DNA from: a virus
Direction: 5' to 3' (one strand)
DNA: 64,000 nt
Virus record (IMG/VR): IMGVR_UViG_3300035565_000044
Location: 36,523 to 100,522 of that record
Shown here one piece after another: positions 2,507-40,658 of the stretch. The notes below the pieces were generated by a model that ran no database searches, was not told where the DNA came from, and was given only the letters and a program-made list of their open reading frames with translations. The position numbers were made by a program, and so were the translations under genes. How positions within the stretch are numbered: position 1 is the first letter of the stretch; each line of letters starts with the position of its first letter.

Positions 2507-2578
2507 TGGCGCTCCTACACAGGATCGAACTGTGATTTTCAGGATTGAAAGCCTTATCCCTCACCAGAGGATAGGAGC
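2507..2578 (-). tRNA. tRNA-Glu(UUC), atypical (short D arm, weak anticodon stem)
   Basis: GCTCCTA/TAGGAGC acceptor, CTTTCAA loop, TTCGATC T-loop, CCA. Confidence 0.7.
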
Positions 2579-2585
2579 ATATACT

Positions 2586-2645
2586 ACTCGTTACGTCACG
2601 TCAAGTTACGGGGCAAAGCGTCAAGACACGATACGATGCATCATG
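2586..2645 (-). repeat. Pentamer array A (12 units), candidate guide RNA
   Basis: CATGA TGCAT CGTAT CGTGT CTTGA CGCTT TGCCC CGTAA CTTGA CGTGA CGTAA CGAGT. Confidence 0.8.
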
Positions 2646-4783: not shown

Positions 4784-4838
4784 AGACGTTGCGTTATGTT
4801 GTGATGCGAGACGTAACGGCGAGTTACGATACGACGTG
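4784..4838 (-). repeat. Pentamer array B (11 units), candidate guide RNA
   Basis: CACGT CGTAT CGTAA CTCGC CGTTA CGTCT CGCAT CACAA CATAA CGCAA CGTCT; fills the intergenic gap. Confidence 0.8.
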
Positions 4839-5281: not shown

Positions 5282-5297
5282 TGTTCCACGTGAAAAT
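5282..5297. promoter_or_regulatory. parS-like site abutting the 3' end of array C
   Basis: TGTTCCACGTGAAAAT. Confidence 0.65.
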
Positions 5298-5355
5298 ACG
5301 TTGCGTTATGATGCGGAGAGATACGATGCGCCACGTGACGTCAAGTTGCGCTGCG
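5296..5355 (-). repeat. Pentamer array C (12 units), candidate guide RNA
   Basis: CGCAG CGCAA CTTGA CGTCA CGTGG CGCAT CGTAT CTCTC CGCAT CATAA CGCAA CGTAT. Confidence 0.85.
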
Positions 5356-5357
5356 TC

Positions 5358-5394
5358 ATCCGATTCAGATAGTCCACCTAGCGGGAGGAGTCAA
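5358..5394 (-). promoter_or_regulatory. Promoter and operator directly upstream of array C
   Basis: TTGACT-17-TATCTG; ATCCG-ATT-CAGAT at 5358-5370. Confidence 0.6.
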
Positions 5395-5959
5395 CCCTCA
5401 AAAATTGTCCACACCCCCTTTCAAAAAAAGTCCAACATGTTACGTTTTCGTATTGACTTCCAACCGGGCGCGTTGTAAAATTTTTACTATGCTGCTATTG
5501 GCAGGCCCAGACAGAGATAACTCCCTAAAATCGAAGAATATCGCAACCAGATAGGTGAAAACCTTCCTGGTTTTCCGTGTTTATCACTCATTTGGTTAAA
5601 AATCGATGCCAGGACAGAATGTATGGATTGCTTCCATTTTTTCTGAAGCAAACGGCCATGCGCAGAATCATCTAGACTTCGGCGCCGCGAATCGTTTAAG
5701 GTCCGGAAACGAACAAAGGCCGGTGCTCCCTGAGAAAGAGCAACCGGCCTTCAAAAAGCATAAATCTGAACAGTGCCCCTCGCAAGAGCAATTCAGAAAG
5801 GAACTTTAGAAACCAAGCTTGGGCTATCTAGCTTCAGCTAAAGGCGGCTTTTGCCGTTCCAGGCGCCAACTTTACTTCTGGCGTCAACCAATGTCCGCTC
5901 CGAACGCGTCAGGTCGCCTTGACGTGTAACGGACCTATGCGCTCCAGTCAAGGAAAAAT

Positions 5960-7321: not shown

Positions 7322-7385
7322 GAAAAATAAGAGAAAAATAAGAAGAACATAAGAATTGATCTTCTTTCTCACACAGTTTAAAATA

Positions 7386-7416
7386 AAAAAAGGAGGCTGT
7401 AAGCAAGCCTCCTTTT
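7386..7416. terminator. Intrinsic terminator-like hairpin
   Basis: AAAAAAGGAGGCT...AGCCTCCTTTT. Confidence 0.6.
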
Positions 7417-7454
7417 AATAAAGAATAGAAACCCTAACCCATAAGGGACTTCCT

Positions 7455-8807
7455 ATGGCCGATTCTACTGCACAAAAAAATAATGTCAATAAGTTTTTGC
7501 CAGAGTACGAATCACAGAGTGTTTTCCGCTCAGACGGGGCTGACTACGCATACACACTGGTATCTAACAGACTGCTCCAAGACTCTGGCATTGATTGGGA
7601 AACCAGGGGAATGATTGCGGACCTGCTGAGCAGGCCAAAGGACTGGGATATTAGCGTTATGGGGCTGGTGGCTATGGCCAATGGCCTAACTAAGAAAGCA
7701 AAAATTTATAGGATGATAAACGCCGCTATGGCGAGTGGGTACATCCGACGCTTTACCAAGCGTGGCGCCGATGGACGTGTGGCTGGATATACGTATGTCG
7801 TATCAGACAACCCTTCTCGCCTTGCACTGCTTTCCGATTTTCAGGAAACTGCTAAGCAGGAAGCTGAAAAACAGCCACAACAAAGTAAAGATCTTAAAAA
7901 AGTAAAAACAGAAAAAAAATACACAGCGCCAACATCGCATTTCCCACATTTTGAAGAGGACATGGAAACAAAAACTCCCCCCATCCCCCAAGGGGGGAGT
8001 GGTCATTCCTGCGTCATGACCGTTCGTGAAAACGCCGAGCCTACAAGCCAACCATCCCAACCAACGTGGGAGGACGAGGAAGGGTTTGTTAACCATATTA
8101 AGATAGACGACTCCGCTACTCATTCCACTTCAATGGTATCCAGCCTTGAGGAAACGCCAGAAGCGGTGAAAGCTGAAACCCTGGTCCTGACGCCCCCAGA
8201 GCCAGAAGCGCCGTCTGTGACGCGTAAGAAGGCCAAGAAAGCGCCTTCTACGAAGCTGGACCACAATACCGACCCTGAGTTTGGAAAATTCTGGGATAAA
8301 TACCCAAATAAGAAAGGAAAGGCTGGCTCTTACGCCCATTGGAAGAGATTTTGTAAGGATAAACCGGAGCTGGCTTCTCTTTTGCCACAGGCCGCTATGG
8401 AATACGAGAGCGATCTTCGTAGGCAGTACAAGAGCGCTTCTGAGGCTAAGCAGCGCACCTGCTGTGGATATAATTGGTTCAACAAAGGTCTCCATGAGTA
8501 CTATGTTGATGTTATAATTGAGAGAAGTAAGCCACAGCCTGTGGAAAATTCAGAAAGCCAATTAGAGCAACGTGCACGCGAAGAACGCGAGAGAGTCGCT
8601 AGGGTAGCTGAAGCATGTTCTGAAACTAAGCGGGCTAGGTTCGTTGAATTCTTGTCAAAGGTGTACTCCAACGTTAAAGACGCATGGAACGAAAAGGTTA
8701 TTGAATATTTCCATGCCCGTAAGTACTGGGATATCGACGCCCTTATCCCAGTTGATGTGAAGAATGAAGCCAGGGCTGCTATCGGAGCTCCACTTCTGGC
8801 TTGTTAG
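7455..8807 (+). CDS. Phage replication initiator / replisome organizer
   Basis: N-terminal HTH (YTLVSNRLLQD...LLSRPKDW), FGKFWDKYPNKKGK motif, between helicase and primase. Confidence 0.75.
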   Translation: MADSTAQKNNVNKFLPEYESQSVFRSDGADYAYTLVSNRLLQDSGIDWETRGMIADLLSRPKDWDISVMGLVAMANGLTKKAKIYRMINAAMASGYIRRFTKRGADGRVAGYTYVVSDNPSRLALLSDFQETAKQEAEKQPQQSKDLKKVKTEKKYTAPTSHFPHFEEDMETKTPPIPQGGSGHSCVMTVRENAEPTSQPSQPTWEDEEGFVNHIKIDDSATHSTSMVSSLEETPEAVKAETLVLTPPEPEAPSVTRKKAKKAPSTKLDHNTDPEFGKFWDKYPNKKGKAGSYAHWKRFCKDKPELASLLPQAAMEYESDLRRQYKSASEAKQRTCCGYNWFNKGLHEYYVDVIIERSKPQPVENSESQLEQRAREERERVARVAEACSETKRARFVEFLSKVYSNVKDAWNEKVIEYFHARKYWDIDALIPVDVKNEARAAIGAPLLAC

Positions 8808-8822
8808 AAAGGAAAGATTACC

Positions 8823-9731
8823 ATGTCCGAAAGGTTTACCGACGCCGCCCGCTCCAGGGGCTTGCTTATACAAACTCCCATTGCTGATGGGACTGTTCAC
8901 CGAGTACGCACTTCTGACAAACCCCACTCCCGAAATGGCGCCTACGTGCTCTTTACCAACGGCCGGGGATGGTTCGAAAACCACGCTGACGGCATGGGGC
9001 GTCAGGAATACGCTCCAGAGTCTAAGGGCGGGCTCACAGCGGCCGAAAGGTATGAGGCTAGGATTAGGGTAGCCGAAGAGAGAAAGCGGTTCCAGGAGGC
9101 TCGCACAGAGGAATACAGAGCGGCTGCGCTGGAGGCCAAGGATCTCTTTGGCAGAGGGCTTATGGTCAAGGCGCATGGCTATCTGAGCGCTAAAGGCGTC
9201 CTCCCTCACGGACTGCGCGTTTTGGACGGCGCATTGCTTGTCCCAGTTCGAGACGCGAATGGGAACTGGCAGAGCTTGCAAAGGATTTTTTTAAATGGTT
9301 CAAAAACCTTTCTAAAGGGCGGGAGACTTGAAGGGGGGATGTTTGTCATTGGCAACATATACCCTGAAGGGGCGGCGCTGGTTGCCGAGGGTTACAGTAC
9401 TGGGGCGACTATCTATGAGGCGACGGGTTGCGCTACGATTGTGGCGTTCAACTGTGGAAACCTTACAAAGGTGGCTAGGTCCCTTAGGAAGAGATATCCT
9501 AAGTTGAAAATAATCATTTGCGCTGACGATGACCGGAACACGCGTGGAAACCCAGGACTGACAAGCGCGAGCGAAGCGGCTAGGGCGGTGGGTGGTTATC
9601 TGGCCAAACCAAATGTTAAAAAAGGTAGCGACTTCAACGATATGTGTGCTGAACTAGGCATGCAAGAGGTTAGGCGCGCGCTTATGGCGGTAGTGAAAGG
9701 TTGCATGGCAGAGCCGGATCGTGGTAAGTAG
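8823..9731 (+). CDS. TOPRIM-domain DNA primase (TraC-like)
   Basis: VAEGYSTG, IIICADDD and GSDFND motifs. Confidence 0.9.
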   Translation: MSERFTDAARSRGLLIQTPIADGTVHRVRTSDKPHSRNGAYVLFTNGRGWFENHADGMGRQEYAPESKGGLTAAERYEARIRVAEERKRFQEARTEEYRAAALEAKDLFGRGLMVKAHGYLSAKGVLPHGLRVLDGALLVPVRDANGNWQSLQRIFLNGSKTFLKGGRLEGGMFVIGNIYPEGAALVAEGYSTGATIYEATGCATIVAFNCGNLTKVARSLRKRYPKLKIIICADDDRNTRGNPGLTSASEAARAVGGYLAKPNVKKGSDFNDMCAELGMQEVRRALMAVVKGCMAEPDRGK

Positions 9732-9740
9732 GAGCATTAA

Positions 9741-9800
9741 CGTTTCGCCTCGTAACGCATCATAACACGCCTCTCCTCTTCGCACCATAACGTAACGTTT
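9741..9800 (+). repeat. Pentamer array D (12 units), candidate guide RNA
   Basis: CGTTT CGCCT CGTAA CGCAT CATAA CACGC CTCTC CTCTT CGCAC CATAA CGTAA CGTTT. Confidence 0.85.
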
Positions 9801-9811
9801 CATGTGAAACA
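9796..9811. promoter_or_regulatory. parS-like site overlapping the last unit of array D
   Basis: CGTTTCATGTGAAACA. Confidence 0.7.
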
Positions 9812-9848
9812 ATGCGCTACCTTGACAAAATCGTTGAGATAGCGCATT

Positions 9849-10235
9849 GTGCTTTTGTATGCAAAATTGAAAGGGATGAATATGTCTGAAGGGAATCAGT
9901 ACAACTCTGGCGCCCGACCACGGGCTAACAGACTTTTACTCGGAAAGTTATACGAAAAGACTAGTCAGAGTGGACAAAAGTATTTTCAAGGCGTTCTTGG
10001 ATTTCTAAAAGTCCTTGTTTTTCATGATGATAACGCGGAAGCGGGCAACGAATGGAATTTTTTCGTTGTAGAACGTGATCCTTCAGAAACTAAGCCTCGT
10101 CAGATTAGTGGTCCACCTCAGCACCAGCCCAACGCTGTAGGCCAAGGCGGCGGATATGGCGCTCAGACGGCCCCCCGCCCCATACGCCAGCCGCGACAGT
10201 TGCCTCCAGAAGGTGGGAGCAATGACCCTTTCTAA
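9849..10235 (+). CDS. Putative ssDNA-binding protein
   Basis: GKLYEKTSQSGQKYFQG beta-rich core, Gly/Gln/Pro tail ending DPF like SSB tips. Confidence 0.55.
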   Translation: MLLYAKLKGMNMSEGNQYNSGARPRANRLLLGKLYEKTSQSGQKYFQGVLGFLKVLVFHDDNAEAGNEWNFFVVERDPSETKPRQISGPPQHQPNAVGQGGGYGAQTAPRPIRQPRQLPPEGGSNDPF

Positions 10236-10776
10236 GCCTCCTAGAGGGTTCCTGACGCCTAGATGGGCGACAGAGGCTTTACTGTCCCATGTCGAACATT
10301 TGGTCAATGGCCTGGAGCCTGCGGCTGGTCAGGGGGGAATATCGAGAGTCTTGAAAGAAAGTGGTAAAAAAGTCGAATCTTTTGATATTTACGAGCACAA
10401 GGACGATGGAATAACGGTTAACCGGCGTAACTTCCTCAGTCAGCATTGGGACGTTAAATATTCAAACTTTCGAATGAAACTGAAAGCTTCGGATGGCGGG
10501 ATTATCTGCCATCCACCCCAGCATCTATTCAAACAGTTTATCAAGAAAGCATTGACGCTAACCGAGCACCACGGGACAGTGGCGTTCTGGCTTAGTCATT
10601 CAATTGACACAGAGCTCTGCTACCAGGAGTTCTTCCATGGAAGCGACGCATTTTATAAAAAGATCGTTCCAATTCAAAGACTAAGACTATCGGATGATAC
10701 TCTGGAGCCAATGGCGTGGTATATCTGGAGACATGGATATGGGGGAGTTCCGACTCTTCATTATGAAATAATTTAG
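10222..10776 (+). CDS. DNA amino-methyltransferase-like protein with altered catalytic motif
   Basis: FLTPRWATEALL, LEPAAGQG SAM-binding motif, HPPQ in place of NPPY. Confidence 0.65.
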   Translation: MTLSKPPRGFLTPRWATEALLSHVEHLVNGLEPAAGQGGISRVLKESGKKVESFDIYEHKDDGITVNRRNFLSQHWDVKYSNFRMKLKASDGGIICHPPQHLFKQFIKKALTLTEHHGTVAFWLSHSIDTELCYQEFFHGSDAFYKKIVPIQRLRLSDDTLEPMAWYIWRHGYGGVPTLHYEII

Positions 10777-10922
10777 GTGAGTAATGGGGCGTATGAGGAA
10801 TAGAGCGGTTGATGGAGTGCGCCGCCATAGGCGTAAATTTTCAATTGACCGTGAGAAGGCTATTGAAAGCACTATAGAGGAAATGATATCCATCATGAAT
10901 AGACTGATTATTTTAGTAAGAA

Positions 10923-11573
10923 GTGATGAGGATGGACTTGACTCTAATGAGGCAAATAGAGGAAACGGCAGTAGAGATATCAATGGAGCCACGGTGGCAA
11001 GACGCTACGGCCGAAAGGATAATGAAAGCCAAGAAGGCTGAACGGCAGGTCCATGAAAATATAGTATATGGTACAAACGGTTTTCCTACTGGTGAGAATC
11101 GTAGAGAAATTTATTCTGCTTTGGACACTCTTTACAGGCGTAACCCACCGATGATCTTAAAAGAAGAGTGGGAAGCTGGTTGCCATTTCTTATTTATATA
11201 TAGAAAATCAGAACAGCATACAAGAACTACAATGAAATGGGTAGCTCAAGTGGATGGAGGCGTTTATGCGCCAGACCCGCTAGAGTTTAAAGAGTTCTCA
11301 ATTAAAGAACTCTATTCAGCTAGCAAGTCAGTCCATCCCCAGGGGCGTACAGCCCTTACATGGCTTATAGAAAACGAATGGCATGATATGAGCCTCGTTG
11401 ACCTTGGAAGCCAATACCCTGGACCACAGGGAAGGGACGCCCAAAGAGAACGAGGCCGAGTCTATCTGCGGCTGGCGCTTAACGATTTAGGGAAGTACTT
11501 CGGATTTATTTCCCCCAATAACGCTTGGGATACCAGGAGGTTTCTGGAGCAATTATTGGGGAAGAGGCGTTAG
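10923..11573 (+). CDS. Putative late-transcription regulator (Q-like/DUF6456-like)
   Basis: C-terminal HTH-like region ending LRLALNDLGKYFG; last gene of replication block. Confidence 0.45.
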   Translation: MMRMDLTLMRQIEETAVEISMEPRWQDATAERIMKAKKAERQVHENIVYGTNGFPTGENRREIYSALDTLYRRNPPMILKEEWEAGCHFLFIYRKSEQHTRTTMKWVAQVDGGVYAPDPLEFKEFSIKELYSASKSVHPQGRTALTWLIENEWHDMSLVDLGSQYPGPQGRDAQRERGRVYLRLALNDLGKYFGFISPNNAWDTRRFLEQLLGKRR

Positions 11574-11935
11574 CGGTTCTTGTTCCTATTATATATGGTT
11601 TCTAGCGCAGTTATAGATTCGCTAGATAAGGCTTCTTTGAAAATCTCAATAAGCTTTTCATTGTTAGGAGTTTCCTTTTCGGTAGGGGCTGAGTCCCTGA
11701 GCGACACAGCCACCTTTGCCACCACGCCCCCAGCATAGTAGCACAGAGCGCAAATAACTTCGTTGTAGTCGCTCCCCCTTCTCTCCTCAGAATCAAGCCA
11801 CCTAAGGGCAGACTCTAGCATGTGTTTACGGGCGCGTCCTACGAGCGCGACCTGTTCGCTATCGCTGAGGCTATCTTGGTGGGCTGACTCCACCGCCGCA
11901 ACGATCATTTCATCAAGCTGCTTTTCAATGTCCAT
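11570..11935 (-). CDS. Hypothetical protein (start MDIEKQ)
   Basis: GAGGAG RBS; promoter TTGCAA-17-TACAAG at 11982-11954. Confidence 0.55.
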   Translation of the reverse strand: MDIEKQLDEMIVAAVESAHQDSLSDSEQVALVGRARKHMLESALRWLDSEERRGSDYNEVICALCYYAGGVVAKVAVSLRDSAPTEKETPNNEKLIEIFKEALSSESITALETIYNRNKNR

Positions 11936-11990
11936 ATTTTTCTCCTCTAACCCCTTGTATCCGTTACGGACGTTCGTTGCAAATGAGAAA

Positions 11991-12006
11991 AGTTTCACGT
12001 GGAGCA
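11991..12006. promoter_or_regulatory. parS-like site
   Basis: AGTTTCACGTGGAGCA, between divergent promoters. Confidence 0.55.
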
Positions 12007-12015
12007 TTTTCCTCG

Positions 12016-12044
12016 TTGACATGGGGTTAATTAGGGCTTAATTA
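12016..12044 (+). promoter_or_regulatory. Promoter for the Y RNA cluster
   Basis: TTGACA with AT-rich -10 (GCTTAATTA) about 17 nt downstream. Confidence 0.6.
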
Positions 12045-12054
12045 TCTCTTCACA

Positions 12055-12120
12055 GCCGGTGGCTAGGAAGTCGATTACAACGTCTTGTGAACGCTAACAT
12101 CGCCTCCGCTTTCCCCCGGC
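12055..12120 (+). ncRNA. Y RNA-like 1 (minimal)
   Basis: Closing stem GCCGG/CCGGC; scaffold TGGCTAG..CGATTACA...ATCG..GCTTTCC shared with RNAs 2 and 3; upstream of Ro60 gene. Confidence 0.7.
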
Positions 12121-12130
12121 GTCTGAATTT

Positions 12131-12268
12131 TTGTGTCGTGGCTAGGGATACGATTACATCTTCTATAGACAAGAAGACTTGCTTGGTTCGATTCCGAGCT
12201 CCCCCACCATCTACGGGGGAGTGTCCAGGGTGGACAGTCGTTATCGTCCCCGCTTTTTCCCGACGCAA
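12131..12268 (+). ncRNA. YrlA-like Y RNA 2 with circularly permuted tRNA module
   Basis: Stem TTGTGTCG/CGACGCAA; T arm CTTGG-TTCGATT-CCGAG; closed acceptor CTCCCCC-ACCATCTAC-GGGGGAG; then D-like hairpin. Confidence 0.85.
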
Positions 12269-12275
12269 CTTAATT

Positions 12276-12415
12276 CAGTGGAGTGGCTAGATTTCCGATT
12301 ACAACGATAGCTCAGTTGGTAGAGCAACAGACTTCATATCTGTAAGTCGTAGGTTCAAACCCTACTCGTTATCCCGTAAGGGGTAATCCATCGTAAATCG
12401 TTTTTCCCTCCACTG
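12276..12415 (+). ncRNA. Y RNA-like 3 carrying a non-permuted tRNA cloverleaf (UCA at the anticodon position)
   Basis: Stem CAGTGGAG/CTCCACTG; D arm GCTC-AGTTGGTA-GAGC; ACAGA-CTTCATA-TCTGT; T arm GTAGG-TTCAAAC-CCTAC; no CCA end. Confidence 0.8.
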
Positions 12416-12425
12416 CTTTAAACAG

Positions 12426-12462
12426 GCGCCGGTTCCTTCGCAAGAGGGGATCGGCGTTTTTT
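12426..12462 (+). terminator. Intrinsic terminator after the Y RNAs
   Basis: CGCCGGTTCCTT/AGGGGATCGGCG stem followed by T6. Confidence 0.8.
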
Positions 12463-12481
12463 GTTTGTAATGCGTAATTTA

Positions 12482-12536
12482 CGTCTCGCTTCATAGCGTG
12501 TCGTGACGTGCCGCAACTCACCGTAACGTAACGTCT
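12482..12536 (+). repeat. Pentamer array E (11 units), candidate guide RNA, in the Ro60 leader
   Basis: CGTCT CGCTT CATAG CGTGT CGTGA CGTGC CGCAA CTCAC CGTAA CGTAA CGTCT. Confidence 0.85.
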
Positions 12537-12553
12537 TGTAGAAAGGAAAGAAA

Positions 12554-13960
12554 ATGGCTCGTACTAATACTAGGACCAGAGCGCCACGCCCTCTGACGCA
12601 TGAAGGCGCTCCAGCCGATAGGATCACAAAAGAGCAAGAGTTGCGCCGCTCTGTGTCTTGCTGCCTGCTTTGGGAGAATGAATTCTATGAAAGCGGTGAA
12701 GACATTGCTAGCCGCATCAGGCGTCTCGCGCTGGAATGTTCTCCTCAATTTGTGTCTAATCTTGCTATTGATGTTCGCAATCGTCTTCACCTTCGTCACG
12801 TTCCTCTTTGGCTGCTTTGCGCTTTGGCTAAAACTGGAACTGGAATTCCGGGGCTTGTGGGGAATACTGTAGCACAAACCATCCAACGCCCAGACGAAAT
12901 TCCTGAGCTTTTGGCGCAGTATTACAAGGCCAATGGCGTTGCTATTAAGGATAAGGGCGGAAAGATCAACAAGATCAAGATGCCTAAGCAATTCAAGAAT
13001 GGTATCGCGCGAGCCTTCACTAAGTTCAACGAGTACTCGCTGGATAAGTGGAACAAAGACGGCGATATCTCCTTGAAATACGCCATGCGCGGCGTCCATC
13101 CAAAGCCAAAGGATGAGGCTCAGGCTCAGTTGTGGGCTAAGCTTTTGGGTAAGGAAGATAAGGAAACTGGCAAGTCTCAGAAGCTTAAGACGGCAGATAC
13201 AGTCATGTCCGCCTTGAGCGCTGGAAAAGAAAAGAAAACAGCAGAAGATAAGAAAACTGTTTTCGAGCGCCAGTTGCGTGAAGGAAAGATTGGATATTTC
13301 GCGTTATTGAAGAACTTGCGCGGGATGGTTGATGCTGGCGTTGACAGGCAGCTCGTTATTGACGCATTGCGCGCTAGGAAGGGAGACAAGGGAATTTTGC
13401 CGTTTCGCTATGTTTCCGCTGCGCGGGCGGCGCCAACGTATGAACCATATGTTGATGAAGCTCTTCAGCACGCGATTAAGAGCAGCAGGGAACTTCCAGG
13501 GCATACTTGGGTGCTTGTTGACGTTAGCGGCTCCATGGACGCCAGTATCTCTGCAAAGAGTGATCTTAGCCGGATAGACGCCGCTGCGGCTCTGGCGTCT
13601 CTGATTCACGGAGACAGAACAGTTATTACGTTCAGCAATGAAATAAAAGTTGTTCCAAGTCGCCACGGTATGGCTGGAATTGAGGCTATTCTCAAGAGCC
13701 AGATTCATAGCGGTACTGAGATGGGAAGGGCCATAAAGTATGTGAATGATCGCGCCAAGCCCCAAGATCGGCTTATCGTGATCACTGACGAACAGAGCGG
13801 GGATGTCGTCCCTGATCCAGTTTGCCAGAACGCATACGTCATAAATGTTGCGTCCTACCGCAATGGCGTCAGTTACGGCCATGGATGGAACCATATTGAC
13901 GGTTGGAGCGAAGCCGTGATAGATTACATTCATGAGCATGAGGCTACGCTTAAATTGTAG
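12554..13960 (+). CDS. rsr: Ro60/Rsr-like TROVE-domain RNA-binding protein with C-terminal VWA
   Basis: THEGAPA, LLWENEFYESG, VHPKP, ALLKNLR, LPFRY, VDVSGSM and VITDEQS motifs; adjacent Y RNAs. Confidence 0.95.
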   Translation: MARTNTRTRAPRPLTHEGAPADRITKEQELRRSVSCCLLWENEFYESGEDIASRIRRLALECSPQFVSNLAIDVRNRLHLRHVPLWLLCALAKTGTGIPGLVGNTVAQTIQRPDEIPELLAQYYKANGVAIKDKGGKINKIKMPKQFKNGIARAFTKFNEYSLDKWNKDGDISLKYAMRGVHPKPKDEAQAQLWAKLLGKEDKETGKSQKLKTADTVMSALSAGKEKKTAEDKKTVFERQLREGKIGYFALLKNLRGMVDAGVDRQLVIDALRARKGDKGILPFRYVSAARAAPTYEPYVDEALQHAIKSSRELPGHTWVLVDVSGSMDASISAKSDLSRIDAAAALASLIHGDRTVITFSNEIKVVPSRHGMAGIEAILKSQIHSGTEMGRAIKYVNDRAKPQDRLIVITDEQSGDVVPDPVCQNAYVINVASYRNGVSYGHGWNHIDGWSEAVIDYIHEHEATLKL

Positions 13961-13974
13961 TTTCATGTGAAACT
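13959..13974. promoter_or_regulatory. parS-like site at the Ro60 stop codon
   Basis: AGTTTCATGTGAAACT. Confidence 0.65.
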
Positions 13975-13998
13975 GCTACGCCCATAGCATGCTGATAG

Positions 13999-14040
13999 GC
14001 CCGCCCCTTGATCGCACCAGGGGGCGGGTTTATTTTATTT
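13999..14040 (+). terminator. Intrinsic terminator
   Basis: GCCCGCCCC/GGGGCGGGT stem plus T-rich tail. Confidence 0.75.
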
Positions 14041-14247
14041 GTTGATGTTTATAGCTGGAGAATTTTGTCCCTTGGTGATAGCCACCTGAGCCTTTCTTCC
14101 GCTAGTTATATTGATATTCGTATAGCCGTCTTCTGTTGTTATGGTTATCTGAGCCTTGTCTATGATAAACCAAAGTATGAAGCTAATCACAGCTATAGCA
14201 ACTAGACCAGCAACGTACAGGTTGATTGTTGATATGATATCTATCAT
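14035..14247 (-). CDS. Small membrane protein
   Basis: N-terminal hydrophobic helix. Confidence 0.45.
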   Translation of the reverse strand: MIDIISTINLYVAGLVAIAVISFILWFIIDKAQITITTEDGYTNINITSGRKAQVAITKGQNSPAININK

Positions 14248-14532
14248 TTATTCTGTCACTCCAGCCTTAAACTCTTCAAGACACTGCCCCTTTTCCTTAA
14301 AATAAAATGGATACGGAGGATGGCAACCATATGGCTGCGGTACGTTATTGCATCCCTTCCGGTTCCATTCATCTATATTGTAATATAGATTAGAATCCGC
14401 TTGGGCCACACAGAGTTTGTATCTCTGATTAGCCGCCTTTCTCTCGTCAGGAGTAAGACAATCGGCATGGGCGACTCCGCAGAGCCGCGCCAGAAGAGCC
14501 ATTATGATTACGGTTCTATTCATTTCGCCCAC
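14248..14532 (-). CDS. Small secreted Cys-containing protein
   Basis: Signal-peptide-like start ending AHA; several Cys. Confidence 0.5.
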   Translation of the reverse strand: MGEMNRTVIIMALLARLCGVAHADCLTPDERKAANQRYKLCVAQADSNLYYNIDEWNRKGCNNVPQPYGCHPPYPFYFKEKGQCLEEFKAGVTE

Positions 14533-15143
14533 TTGATTTGAACTGGTTTTCCCATACGCAGAAGCGTTATTGCTCTGCGCTCTATGCCGTCTTCAGATAC
14601 GAACTTAGCCTCCTCTTTCCACCTTCCATCTTCAAGAGTCCACAGAACATGCGTGCTCGGTACTGGATGCATTTGCGCAAACAGTTTTCCAAGCGTGGCC
14701 ATGGGATCGGTGTCTAAACGAGTGGGGGAGGCGTCTGGAGCCTCTACGGCCTTGGCCTTGCCGAACAGGGTTAATTTCTCCCTTGCTGGCTTCTTGACCG
14801 TCACAACAGGACGTGGCGCTGTTGACTTCTTTATTTGGGCTATGCCGCGAACGTAGGGAACGCCTAGCGCGTCCTTAAGGTCATTCACTGCTCTTACTAG
14901 GTCAGCCTTGCCGTTCGTGTGAGCTCTTGAGTCTGTTGTGTTGAGCGTCACATCGATTTCAACTTTGTGCTCAACATCTTGATAGGTGTAGACGCCGCTG
15001 AATTTGGCGGATGCGCCGCGACGTTCGATTATAACTTTGGTTAAATCAAGCTTGTCCTTAGCGTATGAAATTAATTCTCTCATATGCTTCAGGCTTGAAA
15101 CGTCAGATTTGGCCATGATCATCCCTTTCGGACTGTGTTGCAC
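14520..15143 (-). CDS. Hypothetical protein
   Basis: 207-aa ORF; AAGGG RBS before an internal Met. Confidence 0.55.
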   Translation of the reverse strand: MQHSPKGMIMAKSDVSSLKHMRELISYAKDKLDLTKVIIERRGASAKFSGVYTYQDVEHKVEIDVTLNTTDSRAHTNGKADLVRAVNDLKDALGVPYVRGIAQIKKSTAPRPVVTVKKPAREKLTLFGKAKAVEAPDASPTRLDTDPMATLGKLFAQMHPVPSTHVLWTLEDGRWKEEAKFVSEDGIERRAITLLRMGKPVQIKWAK

Positions 15144-15202
15144 TCTTTCTGTTCGATGTGTAGCCTACGGCATAACGGTTAAGAAACCGTTACCAATTCC
15201 CA

Positions 15203-15231
15203 TTGACCACAACGTTCGTATCGGATATACA
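15203..15231 (+). promoter_or_regulatory. Promoter of the RAMP operon with operator
   Basis: TTGACC-17-TATACA; GTTCG-TAT-CGGAT at 15214-15226. Confidence 0.6.
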
Positions 15232-15233
15232 TT

Positions 15234-15599
15234 ATGTCTAAGTTAAAAGGAAGGGGACTTGTAGAGGAACAGCTCCTCAAATTAGCCCCTAGCGTAAACG
15301 ATAGGTTTCGATCCACGTTTGAAGAATCTGAGCTTGGCGCCCGGCGCTTCGCTCACCTCGTGAGATGGAAGATTGAGCCTAGAGTTCATGTCTCAAAGAA
15401 TGGATGCGTCACGTTTCGTTTTATAGACATAGGCGTGTCAATGACGGCGTTCATTTTTTTAGATAACAGCGCCTTAGATTACAGAGCTAGCATGGAAAGA
15501 GAAGGATTTAAATATACTCCGTATTGCCAGGGGATAGACACAATGGTTAATTCATTGTCTATTATTAAGGCGTTTGGGGTAGATTTATTTACCATATAA
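15234..15599 (+). CDS. Hypothetical protein, first gene of the RAMP operon
   Basis: 121-aa ORF ending 13 nt before the RAMP gene; start uncertain. Confidence 0.45.
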   Translation: MSKLKGRGLVEEQLLKLAPSVNDRFRSTFEESELGARRFAHLVRWKIEPRVHVSKNGCVTFRFIDIGVSMTAFIFLDNSALDYRASMEREGFKYTPYCQGIDTMVNSLSIIKAFGVDLFTI

Positions 15600-15612
15600 G
15601 AAAGGAAAGATA

Positions 15613-16215
15613 GTGAAGATTTGTACAGTCATGCTTGAGGGCATTTCCCATTACTCTCAATCTCGCATGCATTCAGAGCCAGCGTTGGAACAGGAAAGCG
15701 CTGACGAGTACGCCAAGCGCACAGCCCTAGACCATTTGCATTTCGACAGCAAAGGGCATGTGTTTATCCCCCCTATGTCTATCAAGCAAAGCATTGATAA
15801 CGCTGCGAAATATATGCAGCAAAAGGTTCCTGGAAAGGGACAGGCGACATATACAAAGCATTTTAAAAGCGGATTGGCGGTTGTTGAGCCTCTTATGCTT
15901 TTTGACAGTGAAGGAAACCCTGTCATGAAGAGCGCATCCCCCGTTGAAAAACTATGGCTCAACTCCGATGGAGTCAGGGGAGGCGGAAAGCGCGTATGGA
16001 AGTATTGCCCATATATCCCTTCTGGATGGACAGCCGAGCTTCAGGCTCATATTCTTGACGACACCATAGGCGAAGAAGTTTTTTTAAATACTCTCGTGAA
16101 CGCAGGAAGGTTTATTGGGCTTGGAAGGTTCCGCCCCGCTAGTGGGGGATACTATGGACGCTTCACATATAAGCCTGATAGCGTCAATTGGGAAGTTCTT
16201 AGAAACTTCTTGTAA
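15613..16215 (+). CDS. Stand-alone RAMP (Cas7-like RRM-fold) protein
   Basis: N-terminal strand KICTVMLEGISH, FIPPMSIKQSIDNAA (cf. Cas7-group IPGSSLKG), C-terminal Gly-rich loop AGRFIGLGRFRPASGGYYGRF; strong AGAAAGGAAAG RBS. Confidence 0.8.
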   Translation: MKICTVMLEGISHYSQSRMHSEPALEQESADEYAKRTALDHLHFDSKGHVFIPPMSIKQSIDNAAKYMQQKVPGKGQATYTKHFKSGLAVVEPLMLFDSEGNPVMKSASPVEKLWLNSDGVRGGGKRVWKYCPYIPSGWTAELQAHILDDTIGEEVFLNTLVNAGRFIGLGRFRPASGGYYGRFTYKPDSVNWEVLRNFL

Positions 16216-16224
16216 GGGCGGACC

Positions 16225-16755
16225 ATGAAAATAGAAGACGAAGACGGTAAGTATAATTATTACGCCGATATCTATGTTATACGTGATTTGTTTTCCAAGG
16301 TGGAGATTGGGGATACAATAACGTTTTCTCAAATAGAAGAAGTTATGAAGAAACCCGTTGACGGCTCTGTCTACTCCGCTATTCATCAGGCAAAGATTTT
16401 GCTTGAAAGCGAAGATAGAATGGTGTTTGGCAACGTGCGCAGCGTAGGATACAAGCGGCTAACCGATAGCGAAATTATAGAATCTTTCGAGCTCGACCGC
16501 CGCCGCCTCCGCCGAAGGGCTCAAAGGGCTGCGCGCAGATTGACTAATATAAATGACTACGCCAGCCTCAGCAATGTGCAGAAGATAACGCATCAGGCGG
16601 GGCTAGGCGTCCTAGCGGCAATATCTAGAGTGGCTATGCCTAGGACGGTTGAGGACGTTAAGAAGTCCGTAGCTACGCTGGAGGCTCCTACTAAGTCAAC
16701 TCATGCCCCGATTGGGAAGATTTTGGATATCATGAGGGGAAACGTAAAAGATTAG
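16225..16755 (+). CDS. Basic, possible winged-helix partner of the RAMP protein
   Basis: 9 nt after RAMP stop; GDTITFSQIEEV helix, VFGNVRSVGYKRL wing-like hairpin, Arg-rich helix. Confidence 0.55.
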   Translation: MKIEDEDGKYNYYADIYVIRDLFSKVEIGDTITFSQIEEVMKKPVDGSVYSAIHQAKILLESEDRMVFGNVRSVGYKRLTDSEIIESFELDRRRLRRRAQRAARRLTNINDYASLSNVQKITHQAGLGVLAAISRVAMPRTVEDVKKSVATLEAPTKSTHAPIGKILDIMRGNVKD

Positions 16756-16769
16756 TTTCACGTGAAACG
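16754..16769. promoter_or_regulatory. parS-like site
   Basis: AGTTTCACGTGAAACG. Confidence 0.75.
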
Positions 16770-17205
16770 GTGGCATATGAACTTTTTCGATGGATTCGAT
16801 AGCCAGGATCGGGCTAAGATAACGAATATCTCATCTAGCCTAGTTGGCTTGATGGTAAAGATTAATGGTTTGGTTAGGCAACTATCCAACTTTCGGCCAG
16901 AGGGACTTATGTCAGCAATTGAAGACCTGCGCGAAGGCGTAAAGAATGCAGTTGGCAAGATCGAAGCGCTTACAAGCCAGCTTGGTTCCGTGAGTTCGCA
17001 CGTTGAGACTTTGTTTAAGGAAAACTCAGAGCTCAAAATCCAGCTTGCTGACGCCAATACTCAGCTAGCGGCGCTCAAGGGAGCGGCTACAGCCCCCGCT
17101 GAGGCTCATAGTGAGGTTGAGTTGCAAGACTTAGCCAATCAGCTTAAGGCGGCTGTGACGCCTGCTGTAACAGCTCCTGATGTCAATCCAGCGCCACAGG
17201 CTTAA
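16762..17205 (+). CDS. Coiled-coil protein (start uncertain)
   Basis: Heptad pattern; followed by a hairpin terminator. Confidence 0.55.
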   Translation: MKRWHMNFFDGFDSQDRAKITNISSSLVGLMVKINGLVRQLSNFRPEGLMSAIEDLREGVKNAVGKIEALTSQLGSVSSHVETLFKENSELKIQLADANTQLAALKGAATAPAEAHSEVELQDLANQLKAAVTPAVTAPDVNPAPQA

Positions 17206-17208
17206 TGA

Positions 17209-17246
17209 AAAGGGCGCGGTCTCTTGATGGAGCCGCGCCCTTGCTT
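17209..17246. terminator. Bidirectional terminator between convergent blocks
   Basis: AAGGGCGCGG/CCGCGCCCTT hairpin. Confidence 0.7.
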
Positions 17247-17506
17247 TATGATACTTTCTCAAATAGGTGAGCCACCCACCAGCCATCATCTAAAAGAAGA
17301 GTTCCTATATAATCGTATCCGTCTTCTATGGGCTTTCCTGTTTCAATAAAAGAGAATATTCTTTCTTCCTTGGGCTGTTCATCGTCTACGAGAGCCCACA
17401 TGCAGCCAATGCCGTGTTGTATTCCTAGTTTTATCACCTTAGCCCCTTTGGGCATGGATAAGGTGTTATGCTCATTTCCTAATTTATATTTTAGTATGGT
17501 TTTCAT
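17246..17506 (-). CDS. Conserved small phage protein
   Basis: MKTILKYKL...MPKGAKV...MWALVD...YIGT...HLFE pattern. Confidence 0.65.
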   Translation of the reverse strand: MKTILKYKLGNEHNTLSMPKGAKVIKLGIQHGIGCMWALVDDEQPKEERIFSFIETGKPIEDGYDYIGTLLLDDGWWVAHLFEKVS

Positions 17507-19600
17507 CGTCTTTCCTTTCTATCTATGGTCATACATATGATAGCGCTGTCTTGTATAATTTGGCTTTGCCTTGAACGTATTTAGACCGTTCCTATTCCAA
17601 GGCAAAATCCATGCTGGGAGCCAGCGCCAACCTTCCGCCTGACGCCCACGCCATACGCTCCTATCATATAGGTCTGTCATGACGCATTCCCACATAGGAA
17701 AAACTTCATCTTTCCTATTGCAGTAATCGTCAGATAGTTGATCAGCAATATGCGTAGGAAGGCGCACTCTCATTTCTTTTCCTGTCTTTCGTACTGGCAT
17801 ACGCACTTCATTCGTGGACGCGTAGCCTTAGGGTCTTTCCCGGCGCCATCGATGCAAGCTGAATAGGAAATGTATTTGTGAATGAGCTCTGGGGGAATGT
17901 AGCCTTCAGGCGAGCAATAGAGCGCGTAGGCGACAAGAAGTTCCTTCATCATCTTCCCTTTCTGGTTACAAGTTTTTCTAAGGCTTCGTGTAGATAGCGT
18001 ATCACAAACTCTCTAGGCTTCCCTCCCCATAAACACCCCTCCCTAGCCTCTATAGCGGCCTCTAGAGCCTCTTGAAAGGTAGGGCGCGGCTCCCCTAGCC
18101 TGGACCACCTAGGACGCCCAGGACCGCCCGCATAGTGAGCTCTGAGCACCTTCCTAGTCCACACCTGATATGGGCCAGTTTTTCCCTTAGCCCATACCTC
18201 AAATGTATATTTATTCTCATGGGTAGACCAAGAAATTAGCCGTATTCCATCCGGGGCGGATAGGTCAATCTCAACGCCGCTAGGCATTGACGATAATAAT
18301 TTGAGGGCCATTTACTAATATCTCATGTATCCGCGACAGTGAAGCTGTCGCTTCAGCGAACATGAGAAAAATTTTTACATTTTTTTGAAAAAAAGTCAAA
18401 AAAAGTGTTGACTCTACCTGTGAAACACACTATATGTTGTTTCACGAGAGTTCTTTGACAATTTGTTTCTCTGATGACTGGGGCCACTAATCCGTTTGGA
18501 TCAGTGGCCGCAATGCGTTGTGGGGTTAGTGTTCTATGCTACACACGCTAAACATGGCGTAGCCAGTAGCGATAACGTCTAACAGCTCCGCTGTCTTCTG
18601 GTTGTGGCCACGCCTTTTCCAGAAGTCGCTAAGGTTTGGGGAAAACGACATGCGGTGATAAATTTTGTTTTTTATATCAACGCTTTGTCTGATTTTTTCT
18701 TGCTCATTCTCAACTTCGCGTGGAATTTGCGAAAGTTTTTCTTCAAACATCCTGGCATCTTCAGGATTATCTAGAAACCTGTCAAAAGACTCTATGATAT
18801 CTGGTAAATGCATAACGTCTGAGCCATCAATCATAACGATTGACGCCATGGGGATAACCTTTAGAAGGTCGTCAGCGTCGGCTCGCTCCATGGGCATGGC
18901 TTTATCTTTGGTTCTACTCATGCTAAGCGCCACGTCGTCAAACGACACCATGTAGGCGCCTTGCGCCATGATAAAACAGTCTTTCTCGCTCACTTAATTT
19001 CCTTTCAGTTAGAAACTCTCAAACGGCTTTCGATAATCTGCTCTGTGCTCATTCTGCGACGATTGGCAGTTGATAGCACCGCCGCCGCCTTTGTGCGGAA
19101 CTTACGCGCCGTGCGCTTCATTCCCTCCTGGATAATGATGATTTTGCGCCAGACTTCAAGCTGATTGTCGGCTTCCGCCTTAGCCATGCGCCATGCCGTC
19201 TTGCGATGGGCGTAGACGCCAACCACCTTAACGCGTTCATCAACCGTGACAATCGCCTCAAATGTCCCATCTTGGCGCTTGTGGGTTTGCCATTTGAATT
19301 CATGACCAAAGTAATTGAGCGTTCCCATCATGGTATCCCTTCCCTTTCTAATCTAAAATTCCCATCCTCTTACGGCAGATGGGGCATAGTCCGCTAATAA
19401 TCTTTATTCTCTTGTAGACTCCACCACAAGTTATGCAACGTAGGTGATAGTAGTCCAGAGCACGACGTTTCTTCTTCTTCTCAAACGCCACTGTCCCACG
19501 CTTCAGTCTAGCCTTATGGTTGTCTCTGTGTCCTTTCCCCATCAGTTTACCTCTTAAAGGTTAACAAAATGAAAACGCCCAGGAGTTACCCCAGGCGTTT

Positions 19601-30544: not shown

Positions 30545-31094
30545 CATTTGGGGTTTACATCTATACGCCAATGGCGTGTTAGTTAGTCTAGTATTTGTGG
30601 ATTGGCGGCAATCAGCGCCTTAGCGTAAGCCTTGCGCGCTTTATGCAAGTTAGAAGTTAATATTTGCGCGTCAACACATAGGCGCTGTTTAGATGTAAGG
30701 AATGAACCTTCCGGATTATCACCAAAAGAGTCAATAGCTCTTATTGTGTTGCGCAAATCTACATGCAATCGCACAAGATTTTCTTCTAATTCCCACAATG
30801 GAGTGTTTATCATTTACCGCGACCATTATTAGGCTTAAGCGTTATCCATCCGTCTAGATCAATGCCTTGCGCATATTCATCGAATAGCGCTTGCATCAAT
30901 TCTTGGCGTAGCTTGTGGCGCGTAGCTTGCAAAGCGCAACTGGCGTTATATGCTCCAATTGCAACGTTGCTAAGCTCACTCAGCGCTTTATTGATAGCGC
31001 ATAAGTCAGCTTCTACTAAGTGTATTAGGCGTATATCTCTATCTCTCATAATTTACCCCTTACGCGCGTGGCGTATAGGTGAAAACCCCAAATG
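30545..31094. repeat. Long-range inverted repeat pair 7 (30545-30570 / 31069-31094)
   Basis: 26 bp with 2 mismatches; shares TTACATCTA/TAGGTGAAA core with pair 6. Confidence 0.8.
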
Positions 31095-40593: not shown

Positions 40594-40658
40594 TGTGTCG
40601 CACCGTAACTTGCCACAGCGCGCCGCTCCATAACGTCACATAACGCAACGCAACGAGT
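40594..40658 (+). repeat. Pentamer array F (13 units), candidate guide RNA
   Basis: TGTGT CGCAC CGTAA CTTGC CACAG CGCGC CGCTC CATAA CGTCA CATAA CGCAA CGCAA CGAGT. Confidence 0.85.

What the first reader, a model, noticed from the sequence alone, without database searches (positions are those of the whole stretch)
15613..16755. Stand-alone phage RAMP (Cas7-like) gene plus partner: candidate effector of an RNA-guided system without CRISPR
Seen: a 200-aa ORF with RAMP hallmarks (IPxxSxK helix; terminal Gly-rich loop GRFIGLGRFRPASGGYYGRF), followed 9 nt later by a basic wHTH-like ORF. No other cas genes and no CRISPR array occur in 64 kb. Known: Cas7-group RAMPs polymerise along guide RNA with fixed periodicity. 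Inference: its ligands are the six 5-nt-periodic arrays in this window, one subunit per pentamer. The RAMP operon promoter carries the same operator as the promoters of arrays C and F. From memory and unverified, this resembles the recently reported viral VIPR architecture (RAMP plus GGY/NN repeat RNAs). Here the constant triplet is C-led (CGY/CAY/CTY) and the arrays are scattered in trans, so it would be a distinct variant.
Basis: partly seen in the sequence, partly recalled or inferred. Interest (0 to 1): 0.95.

Follow-up and report, generated by a model that had tools for sequence, protein, structure and literature searches.

The report
Phage VIPR system with dispersed guides
This 100-kb phage carries a small Cas7-like protein of the recently described VIPR family, a DNA-binding partner, and ten scattered pentamer-repeat guide RNA genes, so it is a new example of a known CRISPR-independent RNA-guided system rather than a new kind.

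Summary
ORF 15613-16215 (200 aa) and ORF 16225-16755 (176 aa, 9 nt later) exist. The window has six 11-14-unit arrays of C-(G/A/T)-Y-N-N pentamers. The complete 100,522-bp phage has ten; shuffles give 0-2.

A profile of the 200-aa protein's family matches the solved SUSP1 Vipr protein (PDB 36pp, E 1.8e-12). Its AF2 model (pLDDT 97) matches Cas7/Csm3. The partner has a winged-helix N-domain, and homologues follow vipr in 46 of 80 related viral loci.

In 72 of those 80 loci my caller finds pentamer arrays, mostly abutting vipr on its strand. Of the 70 loci with arrays near vipr, 22 are C-led, 37 G-led and 11 mixed, so the C-led triplet is not special to this phage.

The closest relative (83% identical Vipr) keeps arrays at the places of D and E, with conserved flanks but different NN. 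It also has two vipr/vap-adjacent arrays that this window lacks.

The locus is therefore a member of the published VIPR systems (bioRxiv 2026). Three features are unusual:
- No array lies next to vipr.
- There is no structured 3' tail.
- Every array sits in the leader of a co-oriented gene or tRNA.

I found no convincing natural target. Expression could not be tested. The scan had already noted this system on the overlapping window of the same genome.

The parts
15613..16215 (+). vipr: 200-aa single-RRM RAMP with a thumb hairpin (about residues 111-133) and a glycine-rich loop (165-184)
   Evidence: The family profile matches PDB 36pp 'SUSP1 Vipr protein' at E 1.8e-12. BLASTP to SUSP1 ALH47069 gives E 2e-8. 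The AF2 model has pLDDT 97.4. Foldseek top matches are Cas7 and Csm3, E 4.5e-9. 916 representative clusters match at E<=1e-3.
16225..16755 (+). vap-like accessory gene: winged-helix N-domain (about 14-78) followed by a helical C-terminal part
   Evidence: The AF2 model has pLDDT 91. VIA-align matches winged-helix domains of PurR, ScpB and BirA at Z 6.7-7.9. Foldseek hits are weak and all are winged-helix regulators. Homologues lie 50-450 bp downstream of vipr on the same strand in most of the 46 of 80 related loci that have one. There is no similarity to SUSP1 Vap1.
12482..12536 (+). array E: 11 units. It lies behind a terminator hairpin, and its last unit is 17 nt before the ATG of the TROVE/Ro60-vWA gene.
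   Evidence: The homologous array in L085 has 18 units with other NN between near-identical flanks.
9741..9805 (+). array D: 13 units. Its last units are fused to a parS-like palindrome. It lies downstream of the primase gene.
   Evidence: The homologous array in L085 has 15 units with other NN.
5286..5355 (-). array C: 14 units, with its own TTGACT-17-TATCTG promoter-like site and the palindrome ATCTGAATCGGAT just upstream
4784..4838 (-). array B: 11 units. The ATG of a 117-aa ORF starts 1 nt after the last unit.
2591..2645 (-). array A: 11 units, behind a terminator hairpin. A tRNA-like gene follows 13 nt downstream (2510-2578), then tRNA-Met.
40599..40653 (+). array F: 11 units, with a TTGACG-18-TATAAC promoter-like site and the palindrome ATCCGTATCGGAT upstream. 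The ATG of a 133-aa ORF lies 10 nt downstream.
15203..15231 (+). weak promoter-like site TTGACC-17-TATACA upstream of the 121-aa ORF and vipr. It contains CGTATCGGAT, which is shared with the promoter of array F and conserved in L085.
   Evidence: The consensus scan did not call it.
15234..15599 (+). 121-aa ORF directly upstream of vipr. Whether it belongs to the system is doubtful.
   Evidence: It has no family match and no homologue beside vipr in 80 related loci. It is present only in the syntenic relative L085.
16755..16768 (.). parS-like palindrome GTTTCACGTGAAAC right after the vap stop. In the relative L085, a 13-unit array sits between the vap stop and this palindrome.

Best explanation
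This is a VIPR (Viral Interference Programmable Repeat) system of a complete 100-kb tailed phage.

The 200-aa Vipr protein is a minimal RAMP. It binds RNAs made of CGY/CAY-NN pentamers, one protomer per pentamer. Protomers join head to tail, so that the glycine-rich loop of one and helix 1 of the next clamp the constant triplet and present the two variable bases.

The resulting filament uses the string of NN dinucleotides as a gapped guide. By homology with SUSP1 VIPR it binds double-stranded DNA with one skipped base per unit and silences transcription, most likely of competing mobile elements. The winged-helix partner acts as the accessory (vap) DNA-binding factor.

The guides are ten separate cassettes (six in the window). 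They are transcribed with, or just ahead of, unrelated phage genes rather than beside vipr.

**Shown here:** family membership of the protein, the RAMP fold, the reality and genome-wide count of the arrays, the family-wide protein-array linkage, and turnover of NN between close relatives.

**Inferred from the published SUSP1 work:** RNA binding, one protomer per unit, DNA targeting, the skip rule and silencing.
For: **Protein**
- The family profile matches the solved SUSP1 Vipr at E 1.8e-12 and matches nothing else in the PDB sequences. The same profile finds the annotated vipr gene in the SUSP1 genome.
- The AF2 model has pLDDT 97.4 with an RRM core, thumb hairpin and G-loop. Its top fold matches are Cas7 of type VII and Csm3/Cmr4.
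- A trimer prediction supports head-to-tail self-association through the G-loop (166-168, 175-180) and helix 1 (55-62). The score is 0.45 and the best of 3 controls is 0.00. That mark was reached by 20 of 30 proteins solved as pairs of one chain and by 1 of 23 solved as single chains. Runs agree in at least 87% of contacts and partner pLDDT is at least 88. Similar Cas7 and Vipr filaments are solved, so the pass may come from memory.

**Arrays**
- There are ten arrays of 10-21 units against 0-2 in shuffles. All are co-oriented with flanking genes. As RNA they are no more structured than shuffles, with z from -1.0 to +1.9.

**Linkage**
- My caller finds period-5 arrays in 72 of 80 related viral loci, mostly within 100 bp of vipr and on its strand.
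- The same caller recovers the known SUSP1 vrRNAs.

**Guide-like turnover**
- In L085 (Vipr 83% identical, 70-75% nt synteny), arrays sit at the places of D and E. The flanks are conserved, most strongly upstream of E. NN identity is only 8/22 and 10/26, and unit numbers differ.

**Accessory gene**
- Partner homologues follow vipr in 46 of 80 loci. The partner has a winged-helix fold.

**Other**
- NN composition fits codon positions 1-2 better than other registers.
- No guide matches the phage's own genome under the 1-nt-skip rule, as reported for published systems.
Against: - No transcript or binding data could be obtained.
- No convincing natural target was found.
- The residues that read the GGY triplet in SUSP1 are only partly kept. 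R179 aligns with R174 and W178 with F173. D177 aligns with R172, R138 with C132, and H17 with S17.
- The arrays have no conserved structured 3' tail like the SUSP1 pseudoknot.
- No array lies within 3 kb of vipr in this phage.
- The partner is not homologous to SUSP1 Vap1.
- The skip rule has been shown experimentally only for type II systems.
Confidence: 0.8

Rival explanations
1. The arrays act mainly in cis. They are leader elements of phage mRNAs, and a Vipr filament assembling on them controls translation or stability of the gene that follows. This would resemble TRAP binding to 11 spaced triplets in the trp leader. Trans guiding would be absent or secondary.
For: - Every array lies upstream of a co-oriented gene or tRNA. 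Six of ten have a start codon of an ORF of 76 aa or more within 1-17 nt of the last unit.
- In relatives, arrays end 10-25 nt before the Shine-Dalgarno and start codon of vipr or vap itself.
- Eleven units of a triplet plus 2-nt spacer is the TRAP-site geometry (established knowledge of B. subtilis TRAP).
- No trans target was found.
Against: - A cis operator needs only the constant triplets. That would not explain why NN and unit number are replaced between close relatives while the flanks stay conserved.
- The homologous SUSP1 system is shown to act in trans on DNA.
- Four arrays (A, D, G1, G4) are 43 nt or more from the next start or precede a tRNA.
- The two roles are not exclusive.
Confidence: 0.1
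2. The Vipr-array complex targets RNA rather than DNA, like the type III and type VII Cas7 backbones that are its closest solved folds apart from Vipr.
For: The best Foldseek matches are RNA-targeting effector backbones: type VII Cas7, Csm3 and Cmr4. This clade is only about 31% identical to SUSP1 Vipr, and only over the C-terminal half.
Against: - The accessory protein is a predicted DNA binder, as in the DNA-targeting VIPR types.
- The only experimental data for the family show dsDNA binding.
- The Foldseek library predates the Vipr entries, so it could not rank them.
Confidence: 0.06
3. The arrays are unrelated to the RAMP gene. They would be, for example, DNA-level protein-binding repeats or a compositional accident.
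For: No array is adjacent to vipr in this window. Three arrays are fused to parS-like palindromes.
Against: - The protein-array linkage holds in 72 of 80 independent related loci and in the closest relative.
- The arrays are strand-specific with respect to transcription.
- Shuffles give 0-2 arrays against ten observed.
Confidence: 0.02

Closest known systems
Type II VIPR of Escherichia phage SUSP1 (Vipr ALH47069, Vap1 ALH47068, GGYNN vrRNAs; bioRxiv 10.64898/2026.04.26.720920 and .720927; PDB 36pp)
   Same: - The effector is a homologous ~200-aa single-RRM RAMP with thumb and G-loop.
- It forms a two-gene vipr-accessory operon in a lytic-type phage without cas genes or CRISPR.
- The guides are 11-14 tandem pentamers with a constant triplet ending in a pyrimidine and two free bases.
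- There is no self-match under the 1-nt-skip rule.
   Different: - Identity is about 31%, and only over the C-terminal half.
- The triplet is CGY/CAY/CTY, not GGY.
- D177, R138 and H17, which contact G1 and G2 in SUSP1, are not conserved.
- There is no ~35-nt pseudoknot tail. Instead the last two or three units carry constant AA.
- The accessory protein is unrelated in sequence to Vap1.
- The arrays are spread over 46 kb in leaders of other genes instead of flanking vipr.
Solo (orphan) vrRNAs of SUSP1-family phages and F5 satellites (bioRxiv 10.64898/2026.10.15.759431)
   Same: These are vrRNA cassettes encoded away from any vipr gene and used in trans.
   Different: Those elements lack vipr and borrow or redirect another element's protein. 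Here the same genome encodes both vipr and all ten dispersed cassettes.
Cas7-group RAMPs of class 1 CRISPR effectors (type VII Cas7, Csm3, Cmr4)
   Same: They share the RRM core, thumb hairpin and glycine-rich loop (Foldseek E 4.5e-9, TM 0.55-0.6). They also polymerise head to tail along a guide RNA.
   Different: - The repeat is 5 nt rather than 6 nt.
- The guide is a tandem repeat rather than spacer plus handle.
- There is no Cas5/Cas6/large subunit, no Cas1-Cas2 and no CRISPR array.
- Pfam RAMP and NCBIfam models do not match.
TRAP (trp RNA-binding attenuation protein) and its 11 (G/U)AG repeats
   Same: About eleven spaced triplets in an mRNA leader, each read by one protein subunit, placed next to a ribosome-binding site.
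   Different: The fold is unrelated (a beta-sandwich ring). TRAP has no guide function. It is an analogy for the cis rival only.

Membership tests
VIPR system | Vipr protein: minimal RAMP with RRM core, thumb and glycine-rich loop | tested here: met
   The AF2 model has pLDDT 97.4 with beta1-alpha1-beta2/3-thumb hairpin-alpha2-G-loop-beta4. Foldseek places it with Cas7/Csm3 at E 4.5e-9.
VIPR system | Sequence homology to an experimentally characterised Vipr | tested here: met
   A profile of 112 homologues matches PDB 36pp_D SUSP1 Vipr at E 1.8e-12. The same profile matches the SUSP1 genome at E 8.8e-14, at the annotated gene. Pairwise BLASTP gives E 2e-8.
VIPR system | Minimal locus: vipr plus one accessory (vap) gene predicted to act on DNA; no cas genes, no CRISPR array | tested here: met
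   The partner starts 9 nt downstream and has a winged-helix domain. Synteny is conserved in 46 of 80 loci. No Cas1, Pfam-RAMP or CRISPR repeat was found. The partner is not homologous to Vap1 of SUSP1, and I could not assign it to one of vap1-6.
VIPR system | vrRNA genes: 9-16 tandem pentamers with a conserved triplet (GGY or related consensus) and hypervariable NN | tested here: met
   There are ten arrays of 10-21 units with the triplet C-(G/A/T)-Y. This corresponds to the paper's YNNNG class. NN and unit number differ from the syntenic relative while the flanks are conserved.
VIPR system | vrRNA genes flank the vipr gene | tested here: not met
   The nearest array (E) ends 3.1 kb upstream of vipr. 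The gaps beside vipr and vap are 9 nt and 6 nt. The feature is met in most related loci and in the closest relative L085, which has arrays between vipr and vap and after vap. The paper calls this feature 'typical', not obligatory.
VIPR system | Invariable structured 3' tail after the repeats (pseudoknot in the SUSP1 clade) | tested here: not met
   There is no conserved sequence beyond about 7 nt after the arrays. SUSP1 arrays analysed the same way show a shared ~35-nt tail. Here and in relatives the constant part is the last two or three units, xRCAA xRCAA xGYNT. Tails of the other six published types are not described in the text I could read.
VIPR system | vrRNAs are expressed and co-purify with Vipr | not testable with these tools
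Only promoter-like and terminator-like sites could be listed.
VIPR system | Gapped recognition of dsDNA with a 1-nt skip; natural targets in competing mobile elements; no self-targeting | tested here: inconclusive
   No self-match rises above shuffles under the 1-nt skip. NN composition fits codon positions 1-2 best. Collection scans gave only chance-level or unconvincing hits. A skip-rule comparison on 242 guides was uninformative.
VIPR system | Encoded by a virus or provirus | tested here: met
   The genome is a complete 100,522-bp viral record with direct terminal repeats. It encodes a portal, primase, DnaB-like helicase and tRNAs.
VIPR system | SUSP1 residues that read the GGY triplet (H17, R138, D177, W178, R179) | tested here: not met
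   The aligned residues are S17, C132, R172, F173 and R174. Only the aromatic residue and the last arginine are kept. This is not a family-defining feature. G-led and C-led relatives share GxGRFR, so this loop alone does not set the first base.
Class 1 CRISPR-Cas effector (Cas7 backbone) | CRISPR array, crRNA with repeat-derived handle, and partner Cas5/Cas6/large subunit or adaptation genes | tested here: not met
   No CRISPR-like repeats. No Cas1 or Pfam RAMP match in the genome. No Pfam, NCBIfam or PADLOC-type cas annotation for the two genes.

The most novel reading that the evidence does not exclude
In this Vipr clade the guide cassettes may be built into mRNA leaders, directly ahead of the ribosome-binding sites of vipr and vap in relatives and of ten unrelated genes here. 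These include the phage Ro60/Y-RNA module and a tRNA cluster.

Vipr filament assembly on the nascent leader would then do two jobs. It would cut out or protect a trans-acting guide, and it would set translation of the gene behind it. Guide supply would be tied to the phage's gene-expression programme.

The clade also switches the first scaffold base between G and C among proteins that are about 45% identical. That offers a natural map of how a RAMP reads its constant triplet.
Probability: 0.2. Interest if true: 0.7.

Novelty: new member of a known kind. Interest (0 to 1): 0.4.

Why it matters
VIPR was described only in 2026, and all experiments so far are on the SUSP1 and P. fulva type. This phage gives a complete genome in which one vipr serves ten dispersed, tail-less guide cassettes with a C-led scaffold.

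Together with its relatives it offers natural material for three questions:
- Which residues choose the constant triplet, given that G-led and C-led arrays occur among closely related proteins.
- Whether a structured tail is needed.
- How guides are made when they are embedded in mRNA leaders or placed next to tRNAs.

It does not change the picture of what VIPR is.

Tried and rejected
**G-loop change does not explain C versus G.** The change D177 to R172 looked like an explanation for C instead of G at scaffold position 1. I rejected it because G-led and C-led relatives share the same GxGRFR loop. The columns that best separate the two groups lie at 113-117, 131-134, 141, 176 and 178. However, the G-led group is one tight clade, so phylogeny confounds this.

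**Target search**
- Self-genome scans under 0-3 nt skips gave nothing under the 1-nt rule.
- Cross-scans between this phage and L085 gave nothing.
- A test of 242 guides against 2.4 Mb of related loci did not separate the skip rules.
- Eight IMG/VR scans were run:
  - G2 and C cores gave 0 hits.
  - E and F 8-unit cores gave 13 and 19 hits, which is chance level.
  - D gave 2 hits, G4 gave 1, and A gave 6 (4 independent).
- The best hit is guide A at 22/22 in L156/L157. It sits in an E/K-rich 92-aa ORF of a 36% GC contig with no relation to this 48% GC phage. No two guides converge on one contig. I do not accept it as a target.

**Peptide similarity among guide-A hits.** This similarity is forced by the search pattern and is not homology.

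**parS-like palindrome as a clade-wide vrRNA tail.** Rejected: 0 of 237 relatives' arrays have it.

**Host inference.** Relatives occur in MAGs of many phyla, so no host could be inferred.

Full report
**What is there.** The window is the last 64 kb of a complete 100,522-bp viral record with direct terminal repeats. ORF 15613-16215 (GTG start, 200 aa) and ORF 16225-16755 (176 aa) lie 9 nt apart on the + strand. Neither has a Pfam or NCBIfam match. The first matches phrog_4652, a family of unknown function.

They are A 2591-2645(-), B 4784-4838(-), C 5286-5355(-), D 9741-9805(+), E 12482-12536(+) and F 40599-40653(+). A motif-free scan for period-5 information content over the whole genome returns these six, four more just upstream of the window, and one A-rich false hit. 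Shuffled genomes give 0-2. Over 127 units, position 1 is C in 121, position 2 is G in 87, A in 25 and T in 14, position 3 is always a pyrimidine, and positions 4-5 vary. There are no GGYNN arrays, no CRISPR-like repeat, and no Cas1 or Pfam-RAMP match.

**What the protein is.** An exhaustive HMMER search finds 916 representative clusters at E<=1e-3. A profile of 112 of them matches one thing in the PDB sequence set: chain 36pp_D, 'SUSP1 Vipr protein', at E 1.8e-12 over profile positions 25-185. The same profile picks out the vipr gene in the SUSP1 genome. Pairwise BLASTP gives E 2e-8 with 31% identity over 101 residues.

The AlphaFold2 model is very confident (pLDDT 97.4). It shows an RRM core, a beta-hairpin thumb at about 111-133 and the glycine-rich loop at 165-184. 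Its best Foldseek matches are Cas7 of type VII and Csm3/Cmr4, with E down to 4.5e-9 and TM 0.55-0.6. That library predates the Vipr entries. The protein is therefore a RAMP and a sequence-level member of the Vipr family.

A trimer prediction supports head-to-tail self-association through the G-loop and helix 1. The score is 0.45 and the best of 3 controls is 0.00. That mark was reached by 20 of 30 proteins solved as pairs of one chain and by 1 of 23 solved as single chains. Runs agree in at least 87% of contacts and partner pLDDT is at least 88. Because Cas7 and Vipr filaments are solved, this pass shows likeness and no more.

**What is published.** VIPR systems were reported in 2026. They consist of a Vipr RAMP, a vap accessory gene, and vrRNAs of 9-16 YNNGG repeats followed by an invariable tail. 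One protomer binds per repeat. The GGY triplet is sequestered by two neighbouring protomers, and the NN bases pair with dsDNA with one skipped base per unit. The outcome is transcriptional silencing of competing phages and satellites. Seven types are described, with repeat variants NNNGG, YNNNG and NNNNG and varied array layouts. Solo vrRNAs away from any vipr are also known. Read as Y-N-N-C-G, the window's pentamer falls into the YNNNG class.

**Relatives.** Eighty IMG/VR loci encode homologues at 42-50% identity. In 72 of them my caller finds period-5 arrays, usually within 100 bp of vipr and on its strand. The same caller recovers the three expected GGYNN arrays and their shared tail in SUSP1, which serves as a positive control.

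Of the 70 loci with enough units near vipr, 37 are G-led, 22 are C-led and 11 are mixed, although nearly all share the loop GxGRFR. The C-led triplet is thus common in this clade, and the loop residue that replaces SUSP1 D177 does not by itself decide the first base.

In both groups the arrays end with units whose NN is constant (xRCAA xRCAA xGYNT). These are followed 10-25 nt later by a Shine-Dalgarno sequence and the start of vipr or vap. Homologues of the 176-aa partner lie downstream of vipr in 46 of 80 loci. Its model (pLDDT 91) has a winged-helix topology at residues 14-78 and long helices after it. VIA-align matches the N-domain to winged-helix domains of PurR, ScpB and BirA at Z 6.7-7.9. 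Foldseek gives only weak hits, all to winged-helix regulators. It shows no similarity to SUSP1 Vap1.

**The closest relative.** A metagenome contig (L085) encodes a Vipr that is 83% identical and is syntenic with window 5352-18145 at 70-75% nucleotide identity. It has arrays at the places of D and E. The flanks are conserved, and about 100 nt upstream of E are almost identical. The arrays themselves have 15 and 18 units instead of 13 and 11. NN identity is 10/26 and 8/22, about what chance plus the constant 3' units gives.

L085 also has an 11-unit array between vipr and vap and a 13-unit array between the vap stop and a parS-like palindrome. Both are missing from the window as clean indels. 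Arrays therefore behave as exchangeable cassettes, and the absence of vipr-adjacent arrays in this phage looks like a recent loss.

**Layout in this phage.** All ten arrays are co-oriented with the next gene. Six have the start codon of an ORF of 76-468 aa within 1-17 nt of the last unit. Among these is the TROVE/Ro60-vWA gene behind array E. Array A is followed after 13 nt by a tRNA-like gene and then tRNA-Met. Arrays C and F have their own promoter-like sites. Arrays A, E and one array outside the window follow terminator hairpins directly. As RNA the arrays are no more structured than shuffles. No conserved tail follows them.

**Targets.** Under the published 1-nt-skip rule, no guide matches the phage's own genome above shuffled controls. 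This agrees with the reported lack of self-targeting. NN composition fits codon positions 1-2 better than other registers, which is weak support for wobble skipping.

Eight scans of IMG/VR gave either nothing or numbers near chance. The best case is guide A at 22/22. It lies in an E/K-rich ORF of an unrelated 36% GC contig, and no two guides converge on one element. I could not run shuffled-pattern controls on the collection.

One oddity remains. Guide C matches window 6045-6098(-) at 23/28 if two bases are skipped per unit. The next best site scores 19, and 400 shuffles reach at most 21.

**Verdict.** This is a VIPR system, and a new member of a family already described. It differs in three respects: dispersal of all guide cassettes into leaders of other genes, the lack of a structured tail, and a C-led scaffold that it shares with many relatives. 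RNA binding, DNA targeting and silencing are inferred from SUSP1 and not shown here. The main rival is a cis role of the leader-embedded arrays in translation. It is compatible with the data and may coexist with guiding.

The scan had already noted the same arrays and the same gene on the overlapping window of this genome.

Noticed in passing
window 6045-6098 (-): The NN string of array C matches this site at 23 of 28 positions if two bases are skipped per unit. The next best site in the genome scores 19, and 400 unit-order shuffles reach at most 21. The site lies in the 5' part of the DnaB-like helicase ORF, over a promoter-like TTAACA-16-TAAAAT.
   Followed up: partly
window 16755-16768; also 5282-5297 and 9796-9811: The parS-like palindrome GTTTCACGTGAAAC sits directly after the vap stop. 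Near-copies are fused to the last units of arrays C and D, and of one array outside the window. None of 237 arrays in related phages has it, so it is specific to this phage lineage. L085 has it too.
   Followed up: partly
window 5358(-), 32342(+), 33611(-), 40579(+); half-site 15217(+): The 13-nt palindrome ATCCGWATCGGAT occurs four times in the genome. Two copies overlap the promoter-like sites of arrays C and F. A half-site, CGTATCGGAT, lies upstream of the vipr operon and is conserved in L085. It could be a regulator site or a phage promoter element.
   Followed up: partly
window 2510-2578 (-): A tRNA-like gene (Rfam tRNA, 34 bits; not called by ARAGORN) lies 13 nt downstream of array A and upstream of tRNA-Met 2337-2412. 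RNase P cleavage could define the 3' end of that vrRNA.
   Followed up: no
window 12301-13960 (+): A TROVE/Ro60-vWA gene (12554-13960) is preceded by a tRNA with anticodon UCA (12301-12375) and a strong terminator. Array E sits between that terminator and the Ro60 ribosome-binding site.
   Followed up: no
G000 30867-30971 (-), outside the window: This is the longest array, at about 17-21 units. Its NN string is internally repetitive (GG AA GG AA GG, then TA AT three times). That would point to a tandemly repeated target, or to two fused cassettes.
   Followed up: no
L085 10603-10657 and 11243-11307: The closest relative keeps one array between vipr and vap and one after vap. Both are absent from the window as clean indels.
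   Followed up: yes
window 52653-52808: Tandem Repeats Finder reports an 84-nt unit repeated 1.9 times, G+C-rich and at 84% identity. I did not examine it.
   Followed up: no
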